Part shown: positions 4,201 through 7,200 of the stretch, one piece after another
Layout: the number at the start of each line of letters is the position of its first letter
How positions within the stretch are numbered: the stretch's first letter is position 1
From: Eledone cirrhosa
Taxonomy: Eukaryota
NCBI GenBank assembly: GCA_964016885.1
Contig: OZ024751.1
Location: 32,488,001-32,552,000 of the forward strand
Length of the DNA stretch: 64,000 nt
Direction of reading: 5' to 3'
Notes under the pieces: generated by a model
Database searches by the model: none
Told to the model about the DNA's origin: nothing
What the model saw: the letters and a program-made list of their open reading frames with translations, nothing else
Made by a program: the position numbers and the translations under genes

Positions 4201-7200
4201 ATCGACTAAAGCTTAATTAGTGAACTTTCATCCATGGCTACTTTTTAAAAGTCTACCACAAGGAATTATTCCTTTTCATGAATGGGGTACTTAACATGTT
4301 ACTTAAAACTAAGACCTGAGCCGCCGTTGGTGTCTTTATTGATGACCAGTTGCCACTTCCACCTTAGGTATCCGATGCTGTATAAAGTGAAAGTGTCATG
4401 GTCGCTGATTATCCTTCTCTTTCTATAAACAATTAGAAAAAAGTCCTAGAAAACGTACCTGCGATGTTTTCATCTGAGTATCTGACGTTGATGATGTAGA
4501 TTCCAGGTTCATGAGGACTGTAGTCAATGGTATAAATATTATCTTTACGGTCAGTGCAGATAATCTCAGACCTGTGAGGACCATCAATGGCCACAGAAAG
4601 ACCACCATAACCTGTAAAAGAAGGACAACAAATTCGAATAACATTAAAAGGAATTTTATTATGCCATCGTTAAATCTCAATAATAGTAATAATAATAATG
4701 ATGATTTCTGATTTAGGCACAAGGCCAACACTTTGAGGGGGGGGGGGATCGATTAAATCGACGCCAGTGCATTACTGGTGCTTTATTTTATCGACGCCCT
4801 AAGAGTAAAATAAAGCACCAGTAATTCACTGGGGTCGATTTAATGAACTTTCTCCTCCCCTAAAATTGTTGGCTTTCTGCCTAAATCAGAAACCCTTATT
4901 ATTGTTGTTATTGTGTTGTAATCGATACTAACCGGCTTCTTTGGTATCAATGGTCAAGATATTTTTACTGTTGGCAATAGCTTTCTCAGTAGCACCACTG
5001 ACCTTTACTTTTCCGGGTTGACCAACCTCAGCAGTGGTGATATTAACATTGAAAGGACTTTTATTAATATGTTTCTCTCCACTGAAAACGTTCACTACAT
5101 ATTGACCTGATTCCTTTGGAGTGAATGCAGAGACACCTGGCAGCGAAAACAAAAACAAAATTAAACATATATTAATAACAATTAAATATATAAATATACT
5201 TATTTTTTATCGTTGGTAGGCGGTGGATGGTACCAGCATTTACTGGTACTTAAACTAAATAAAATTCAATCGAGGTTATGCTCATTCACACTAAGACGAG
5301 ATTTCAATCTCAAGGTCAATAAGTAGACACACACACACACACACACACACACACACACACATATATATATATATATATATATATATATATATATATATAT
5401 ATATATATATATATATATATATACATACATACATACAAGTATATACAATATGTATGCTTCTAGGAAGTTAATTTCATGTTGAATACTTTGATCACACTTC
5501 GGCCTCTGTTATGGTCTAAGAGTGACAATTTTCTGCAAGTTGTCTCTTCCACCTAATCTTATATTCAACGCTTGTTACAAGTGGTCACAAAGGATTTTGT
5601 CATATTAAACCAGCCCAGGGGAAAGACAGTTCTTTGTAACGAAATACTTATTACAAAGTAGAATCACTGATATCTATTTTATATCACACGAAAGATGTTA
5701 GATAATTGAGTTTTTTTACGCTTGTCACAGACATAAATAATTCATACTGCTATGAATATATGTTGTCTGCGCTGAGACTAATTACATATCATCCTGTGGA
5801 GTAACTATGTATATTCTAACAGAATATATATATATATATATATATATATATATATATATATATATAGAGAGAGAGAGAGAGAGAGAGAGAGAGAGAGAAA
5901 GAGATTTATGAGTGGATTCCCGATGGGTGTCGAGATGTGGCCACTGTTAAAAAGTACTCCATACGTTGGTATATCTTTATTTTACACCTACACCTACACA
6001 CAGCCAAACACACACACACACACACACACACACACATATATATTTATATATATATATATATATATATATATATATATATATATATATATATATATATACA
6101 TGCATACAGGCACATGCGTATACATACACATACGCACACATACATATACACACATATGTATGTGTGTATGTACAATGGGGGAGGTGTAGAAACAGAAAAA
6201 TATATAGAGAAAGAGAAAGAGAATGGTAGTGTGAAATAATCTGTGAGTGTACGAGAGAGAGAGAGAGAGAGAGAGAGAGAGAGAGAGAGAGAGAGAGAGA
6301 ATAGCAAGGAAAGTGGGAGAGGTGTGACATGCAGTTTAATAGCATACCTGAATCCGAAATGTTTGGCGCGAAGCCGCCTGTATCGCATTTGTGGGGAGGT
6401 GGAAGACAGGAAAGACAAGAGGAAAGAAACAGCTTCCCATCATCATCAACACCCACAACAACTACAACATCACCATTACCGCTACTTATAACAAACAATA
6501 ACACCCACAACAACAACTACAACATTACCATCACCCCTACTTATAACGATAACAGCAACAACAACGCAAAATAAAACTACAATAACATTTAGCTATGTGC
6601 TATCGTCTGCAGTATTTGTTGTCAATCCTATTTTGGTAAAACATTTTGTAAGGACAGGAAGAAAGGAGACGTTTATAATACGGATATATATATATATATA
6701 TATATATATATATATATATATATATATATATATATATACATATATCAAGTAGATACATCATATAAATATAGGAATACATATCTATAAAGAATATATTTCG
6801 TATATCCATGTGTGTGTATGTGTTTGTGTGTGTGACTGTCTGCCTTTAAATCACTGTCTTCTTTCTCTCTCTCACTCTCTCTCTCTCTCTCTCTTTCTCT
6901 CTCTCTCTCTCTCTCTCTCTCTCTCTCTCCCTCTCTCTCTCTCTCTCTCTCTCTCTAATATATATATATATATATATTAATATGTGTAGAAGTAAACACA
7001 GCAAACCCGTGTCTAAAATTACGAGGGTAGATTACACCACAAATGTTATATATCATTCAACCTGAATAATATAGGATGTTACAAGATTTCCTACAAGATC
7101 TCTCATACATACCATATCAATAACCATTTCATATCACGGACAGACTAAAGATTTAATCTGTTTCGCCCTGAATGAATTGTGTTTGTAACAAGTAATCCGT

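What the first reader, a model, noticed from the sequence alone, without database searches (positions are those of the whole stretch)
6328..6432. Candidate regulated 30-nt microexon inside filamin Ig repeat 18
Seen in sequence (minus strand): a pyrimidine-rich stretch of about 50 nt with no AG, then AAATGCGATACAG|GCGGCTTCGCGCCAAACATTTCGGATTCAG|GTATGCTATTAAACTGCATG. The 30-nt segment (6377-6348) is phase 1-1 like every neighbouring exon, has no stop codon, and would insert [10 protein letters not shown] between ...KKLSDGSL and GVSAFTPK. It is CpG-rich within an AT- and microsatellite-rich intron. It has a TGC 10 nt upstream of the 3' splice site and a TGCATG 14 nt downstream of the donor. Established knowledge: UGC close to the 3' splice site marks Srrm3/4 (eMIC)-dependent neural microexons, and downstream UGCAUG is the RBFOX inclusion enhancer. 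Inference: a tissue-specific (neural or muscle) switch that alters a loop of repeat 18, which in vertebrate filamins pairs with repeat 19 in the mechanosensing region.
Basis: partly seen in the sequence, partly recalled or inferred. Interest (0 to 1): 0.75.

Follow-up and report, generated by a model that had tools for sequence, protein, structure and literature searches.

The report
Unproven microexon in short octopus filamin
A 30-letter stretch inside an intron of an octopus-type animal's short filamin gene has the look of a nerve-controlled mini-exon, but the one spliced transcript we could read skips it and none of the related proteins examined carries it, so it is more likely an unused look-alike than a working switch.

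Summary
The sequence is exactly as described. The host is a short filamin (repeats 16-24, no actin-binding domain), and the site is in repeat 18.

For a real exon:
- The architecture is eMIC-like: 53-nt AG-free tract, TGC at -10, weak proximal acceptor, ordinary donor, TGCATG at +15.
- Such sites occur about once per Mb.
- The only other TGC-bearing hit in 528 kb is a conserved 12-nt microexon of the same gene.

Against:
- The one spliced data set joins 8557 directly to 5136.
- 0 of 14 octopod isoforms and 0 of 70 aligned homologues have an insert there, although the 12-nt exon is captured.
- The insert would fall at the start of predicted strand E, not in a loop.
- Genome-wide look-alikes equal the backward control (72 vs 70), and only 28 of 69 keep frame.

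Verdict: about 60% a silent or barely used cryptic exon, about 35% a real lineage-restricted regulated microexon. Neural RNA reads would decide.

The parts
6348..6377 (-). Candidate 30-nt phase 1-1 cassette exon (would add [10 protein letters not shown]); inclusion not shown
6378..6379 (-). Putative acceptor AG (CAG); proximal acceptor scores above only 4% of 48 acceptors of two filamin genes
6385..6387 (-). TGC at -10 to -8
6380..6432 (-). 53-nt AG-free zone with a displaced, C/T-rich pyrimidine tract; only weak TGAT branch-point candidates at -65 to -71
6342..6347 (-). Putative donor GTATGC; scores at the 54th percentile of 46 donors of two filamin genes
6328..6333 (-). TGCATG (RBFOX-type motif) at +15
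8557..8715 (-). Upstream exon (159 nt), first half of repeat 18, ends ...KKLSDGSL
4933..5136 (-). Downstream exon (204 nt), rest of repeat 18 and start of repeat 19; joined directly to 8557 in contig 32 of run X4
1157..35954 (-). Ten coding exons of the short filamin gene inside the window (approximate tblastn limits); five more exons and the 12-nt hinge microexon lie up to 34.7 kb beyond the window start

Best explanation
The 30-nt segment sits in an intron of a short filamin gene, is skipped in the one spliced transcript read, and is most likely a pseudo-exon or weak cryptic exon: C/T-rich intronic DNA that happens to frame an AG and a fair donor. Mechanism: the weak proximal acceptor and the lack of a strong branch point would let the spliceosome join 8557 to 5136 by default. 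The join is shown; the reason is inferred. The eMIC factor might splice the segment in at a low rate in neurons (inferred), but ten residues placed at the start of strand E would likely strain the repeat-18 fold, so no selected isoform is expected.
For: (1) Contig 32 of run X4 (630 nt, depth 5551) runs from the downstream exon straight into the end of the upstream exon. (2) 0 of 14 isoforms from O. sinensis, O. bimaculoides, O. vulgaris and Argonauta have an insert here, although the same annotations capture a 12-nt exon in this gene. (3) 0 of 70 aligned homologues covering the site have one. Of 169 filamin-type proteins covering residues 190-210, 4 have an insert of 3 or more residues nearby; none is at 198/199 and all are 25-30% identical. 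(4) The AlphaFold model of the O. sinensis orthologue puts strand E at L198-I200, and the junction follows L198. (5) Genome-wide the motif class is not enriched: 72 vs 70 for the backward control. 28 of 69 other loci keep frame (p=0.13 against 1/3), and 7 of 24 among those with the longest, purest tracts. Of 6 other loci with a close TGCATG, 1 keeps frame (lengths read by eye). (6) No CTRAY branch point in 183 nt upstream.
Against: The signature is rare (about 1 per Mb; 0 in 1.10 Mb with TGCATG). Of the 7 rows listed in 528 kb of strand-bases around the gene, the only two with TGC are this segment and the real 12-nt microexon, same gene and same strand. The weak proximal acceptor with a displaced tract and normal donor fits eMIC exons. 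The segment is in frame, stop-free, G+C-rich (about 12% of 1062 background pseudo-exons reach 53%) and single-copy. The tissue of X4 is unknown and contigs drop minor isoforms, so neural inclusion is untested. With the close TGCATG the class has 7 matches against 1 for the control, though that control is biased low because its reversed motifs contain CpG.
Confidence: 0.6

Rival explanations
1. A real, lineage-restricted regulated microexon. In neurons (or muscle) the eMIC form of Srrm2/3/4 would bind near the UGC, RBFOX would bind the downstream UGCAUG, and ten residues would enter repeat 18 at the D-E hairpin/strand E boundary. This would loosen or re-tune the 18-19 pair of a scaffold filamin that cannot bind actin.
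For: Feature match and rarity. An SRRM_C exon over the Pfam cut-off is in G000. The gene already uses a microexon. A 2026 preprint reports that only about 3% of neural exons in outgroup species are conserved in another sampled species (passage; its species are far more distant than these octopods), so absence elsewhere is not fatal.
Against: No inclusion product in any of 14 octopod isoforms or 70 homologues. Skip junction in X4. Predicted strand position. No class-wide enrichment. No strong branch point.
Confidence: 0.35
2. Origin hypothesis, compatible with either reading above: the segment is a decayed copy of the first 30 nt of the downstream exon, which also ends in CAG followed by GT at exactly +30. 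A short duplication would have made a ready symmetric exon.
For: 14 of 30 ungapped matches. Gapped alignment p about 0.01 with one gap setting. The peptides resemble each other (F-x-P ... D/E-S).
Against: p rises to 0.1-0.2 with other gap settings and is 0.09 ungapped; no similarity in the flanks. The comparison was made post hoc.
Confidence: 0.1
3. The CpG-rich core is a DNA-level element, not an exon: it holds TTTGGCGC on the + strand, an E2F-type site (consensus recalled, from no call).
For: The 8-mer is rare (5 in 570 kb, both strands), and 30-nt windows with 4 CpG are about 0.8% of background.
Against: One site deep in an intron, no promoter context, noticed post hoc; it does not explain the splice signals.
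Confidence: 0.04

Closest known systems
eMIC (Srrm3/4, Srrm234)-dependent neural microexons (10.1101/2024.09.17.613571, passages and section 10; PMC8797185, passages and section 10)
   Same: Short length (fly median 31 nt), long AG-exclusion zone, UGC between tract and AG, displaced pyrimidine tract, weak proximal 3' site.
   Different: No strong CUAAY branch point, no alternating UCUC run in the upstream tract, long flanking introns unlike fly targets, and no inclusion or eMIC dependence shown.
RBFOX-enhanced micro-exons (PMC4317164, passages)
   Same: 51 nt or shorter, frame-symmetric, TGCATG just downstream.
   Different: Those have conserved intronic flanks and mostly encode disordered residues; here conservation is untested at DNA level, absent at protein level, and the site is a predicted strand.
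12-nt hinge microexon (ESRP) of the same gene
   Same: Same gene and strand, phase 1-1, 53-nt AG-free zone, TGC near the AG.
   Different: It is annotated in O. sinensis and O. bimaculoides, has a counterpart (EYPA) in unnamed Logan proteins, has a stronger donor (98th percentile) and lies in a low-confidence hinge.
Drosophila FLN90 (PMC5173320, passages) as model for the host protein
   Same: Nine C-terminal Ig repeats, no actin-binding domain, about 90 kDa.
   Different: FLN90 is a short transcript of the cheerio locus; here the short filamin appears to be a separate gene, 8 Mb from and opposite to a full-length filamin on C11.

Membership tests
eMIC-dependent neural microexon | Short, frame-preserving cassette with AG and GT ends | tested here: met
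   30 nt, phase 1-1, no stop
eMIC-dependent neural microexon | UGC between pyrimidine tract and AG; long AG-exclusion zone; weak proximal 3' site | tested here: met
   TGC at -10, 53-nt zone, acceptor at 4th percentile
eMIC-dependent neural microexon | Strong branch point (CUAAY type) | tested here: not met
   Only TGAT/TAAT candidates in 183 nt upstream
eMIC-dependent neural microexon | Spliced into mRNA | tested here: inconclusive
   Skip junction seen in run X4, tissue unknown; contigs drop minor isoforms
eMIC-dependent neural microexon | Neural-specific inclusion that depends on eMIC | not testable with these tools
   No tissue-labelled RNA; an SRRM_C exon is present in G000
eMIC-dependent neural microexon | Conservation in related species (typical, not obligatory) | tested here: not met
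   Protein level only: 0 of 14 octopod isoforms, 0 of 70 homologues; orthologous introns unavailable
RBFOX-enhanced micro-exon | TGCATG in the downstream intron | tested here: met
   +15
RBFOX-enhanced micro-exon | RBFOX binding and conserved flank | not testable with these tools
   The Fox-1_C search gave no match in G000, which does not show absence
Filamin Ig repeat 18 (host domain) | Best match to FLNA domains 18-19, between 16-17 and 19-21 | tested here: met
   P0003 13-146 to 2K7P, 150-328 to 2K7Q, 239-519 to 2J3S
Full-length filamin (host gene) | N-terminal calponin-homology actin-binding domain | tested here: not met
   None in P0003; no CH match listed near the locus

The most novel reading that the evidence does not exclude
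A young exon, present only in this octopod lineage and perhaps born by copying the first 30 nt of the next exon, has been captured by the eMIC/RBFOX program. It breaks strand E of repeat 18 to switch the 18-19 autoinhibited pair of an actin-free scaffold filamin in nerve or muscle: a splice-controlled setting of a mechanosensor region. The simpler part, that the exon is real and regulated, is about 0.35.
Probability: 0.12. Interest if true: 0.55.

Novelty: new member of a known kind. Interest (0 to 1): 0.22.

Why it matters
If real, it would be one more microexon of a well-known class, but in an unusual place: inside a core strand of the filamin region whose masked binding sites open under force (PMC5011733, passages). 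It could be tested cheaply by RT-PCR and a minigene. If not real, the case is a useful calibration: in this repeat-rich genome a UGC/pyrimidine/donor signature is mostly chance. The firmer result is the side finding of a conserved 12-nt hinge microexon in a short filamin gene without actin-binding domain, whose counterparts are found across molluscs.

Tried and rejected
- RNA: no RNA holder listed. X4 is taken as RNA only because it shows a CT..AC joint and no cover in the unique intron bins. No X4 contig laid on 6305-6445; this is no proof of absence. X1-X3 behave as DNA, are one sample and may be the source of the assembly.
- Conservation: no relatives are held for G000. The metagenome scan for the upstream exon found nothing. 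The search for shorter proteins gave two single-exon fragments.
- Repeat origin: single copy.
- Structured RNA: z = -0.32. None of 21 Rfam matches, all below gathering score, overlaps the segment.
- Paralogue: the full-length filamin has the same phase-1 intron (about 790 nt) with no such signature.
- The inclusion isoform could not be folded; only the skip form of the O. sinensis orthologue was.
- Fox-1_C search: blank.
- The short first coding exons were not found by motif upstream of 35955.
- Literature: searches (listings only) showed no title on a cephalopod filamin microexon. Torres-Mendez 2019 was not held. No supplements were read; exon tables for O. bimaculoides in the supplements of 10.64898/2026.09.05.749416 (main-text passages only) may bear on conservation.
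- Earlier scan notes: none near this place or for this sequence.

Full report
OBSERVATION. On the minus strand there is an AG-free zone of 53 nt (6432-6380), TGC at -10, AG at 6379-6378, a stop-free 30-nt segment 6377-6348, the donor CAG|GTATGC and TGCATG at +15 (6333-6328). The flanking exons are 8715-8557 and 5136-4933, joined in phase 1. The segment is single-copy in the 3.0-Gb genome G000.

HOST GENE. The downstream exon is 79% identical to O. sinensis XP_029646412 (837 aa), so the animal is an octopod. The orthologue maps onto 15 exons, 10 of them in the window. It has nine filamin repeats and no calponin-homology domain. It aligns in order to human filamin A domains 16-17, 18-19 and 19-21, which places the site in repeat 18. 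A full-length filamin lies on the same contig about 8 Mb away on the other strand, so the short form appears to be its own gene. Proteins of 820-875 aa with the same content occur in gastropods, bivalves, a chiton and a leech. The protein resembles Drosophila FLN90 in make-up (PMC5173320, passages).

RNA. The run search listed four runs, none on record as RNA. X4 behaves as RNA: it skips the next intron at CT..AC and leaves unique intron bins empty. Its contig 32 (630 nt, depth 5551) leaves the downstream exon at 5137 and continues with the end of the upstream exon, so the skip junction is shown. The tissue is unknown and contigs drop minor forms, so this shows only that skipping is the main form in that sample.

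HOMOLOGUES. None of 14 isoforms from O. sinensis, O. bimaculoides, O. vulgaris and Argonauta has an insert at this point. 71 proteins were aligned; 7 were left out (the two window exons, four fragments under 200 aa, and P0016, which one search covers). 70 of the 71 cover the site and none has an insert. Of 190 BLAST hits among the proteins held, 169 cover residues 190-210. Four have an insert of 3 or more residues nearby, none at this junction and all at 25-30% identity.

POSITIVE CONTROL. The same annotations do capture a 4-residue option (ESRP) near the C-terminal hinge. I found its 12-nt exon in this genome at G000:C11:32473900-32473889. Unnamed Logan proteins about 75% identical, presumably from squid or cuttlefish (inferred), have EYPA there. 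So a microexon of this gene is detectable in these data, and this one is not detected.

STRUCTURE. In the AlphaFold model of the O. sinensis protein (mean pLDDT 78.5; local blocks 78-79) strand D is 190-192, the turn 193-197 and strand E 198-200. The junction follows L198, so the ten residues would enter at the start of strand E. It is my inference that this either loops out with loss of a core leucine or shifts the strand register. The real 12-nt exon, by contrast, lies at a low-confidence hinge (711-720). The inclusion form could not be folded.

LOCAL CHANCE. Matrices from 46 donors and 48 acceptors of the two filamin genes (sites picked by a heuristic near tblastn ends) put the donor at the 54th and the proximal acceptor at the 4th percentile. 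The displaced tract is 88% pyrimidine. That is the architecture described for eMIC exons, except that no CTRAY branch point is present. In 1.10 Mb of strand-bases from 57 loci, 1 site met donor >=7/9, AG-free >=40, pyrimidine >=0.75, TGC and open frame, and none had TGCATG as well. In 528 kb around the gene, 7 rows passed a looser filter, and the two with TGC were the candidate and the 12-nt exon. This is the best evidence in favour; the thresholds were set after seeing the candidate.

GENOME-WIDE CHANCE. A pattern for tract, TGC, YAG, 9-42 nt and donor gave 72 matches against 70 for the backward control (a narrower pattern gave 24 against 33). Of 69 other loci 28 keep frame (p=0.13), and 7 of 24 among the best tracts. 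Adding a close TGCATG gave 7 against 1, with a control biased low, and 5 of the 6 other loci shift frame (read by eye). So look-alikes are mostly chance.

WEIGHING (my estimate, from no call). Being on the sense strand of an expressed gene, open in the right phase and next to TGCATG lifts this candidate well above its class. Absence from related proteomes, the strand position and the skip contig pull it back.

MECHANISM. Best reading (0.6): default skipping of a pseudo-exon or weak cryptic exon. The skip is shown; the cause and the lack of function are inferred. Main rival (0.35): a lineage-restricted exon switched on by eMIC-bearing Srrm2/3/4, whose SRRM_C exon is in the genome, helped by RBFOX (PMC4317164, passages). 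It would alter repeat 18 in the force-gated region (PMC5011733, passages). A weak lead on origin: the downstream exon also reads CAG then GT at exactly +30 and resembles the segment, with p from 0.01 to 0.2 by gap setting and no flank similarity.

COMPARISON AND NOVELTY. It is built like an eMIC/RBFOX microexon, but membership is not established: inclusion, neural bias and factor dependence are unshown, and branch point and protein conservation were tested and not met. At best it is a new member of a known kind. Eight literature searches (listings only) showed no title on it, and no supplements were seen. Earlier scan notes report many microexons elsewhere in this genome (unchecked), which raises the prior slightly. 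Interest 0.22.

Noticed in passing
G000:C11:32473889-32473900, minus strand (L004; 14.1 kb beyond the window start): A 12-nt phase 1-1 microexon (ESRP) in a 25-kb intron of the same gene, matching annotated O. sinensis and O. bimaculoides isoforms; EYPA in unnamed Logan proteins. Mytilus and Babylonia isoforms have other optional peptides of 3-17 residues at the same hinge, so the site looks like a mollusc-wide splicing hot spot.
   Followed up: partly
window 1157-35954 and beyond the window start: The host is a short filamin (repeats 16-24, no actin-binding domain), apparently a separate gene from the full-length filamin at C11:40.46-40.54 Mb; similar short proteins occur in other molluscs and a leech. 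No paper on it appeared in the listings.
   Followed up: partly
window 5107-5136: The first 30 nt of the downstream exon end in CAG followed by GT and weakly resemble the candidate.
   Followed up: yes
window 6348-6377, + strand: Contains TTTGGCGC, an E2F-type consensus (recalled); 5 copies in 570 kb of background.
   Followed up: partly
L088 (G000:C11:40505890 and 40508431, + strand): Two short in-frame exon-like segments (48 nt with a consensus donor, and 18 nt) in the long intron at the probable hinge-1 position of the full-length filamin.
   Followed up: no
L155 (C22:1562591-1562636), L129 (C4:375717940), L148 (C15:6809486), L100 (C1:257358213): In-frame 12, 9, 36 and 9-nt segments with long AG-free tracts, TGC and strong donors; good microexon candidates elsewhere in the genome.
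   Followed up: no
window 4710-4926: A very high-copy intronic repeat with an internal inverted arrangement; contig depth reaches millions in the DNA runs and is also high in X4.
   Followed up: no
upstream of window 35955: Octopod isoforms have alternative short N-termini (MAKVV, MTQVR or none), suggesting alternative first exons; not located by motif.
   Followed up: partly
L002 (G000:C22:28167743-28167880): An exon matching SRRM_C over the Pfam cut-off, RS-rich and ending in the eMIC-type motif.
   Followed up: partly
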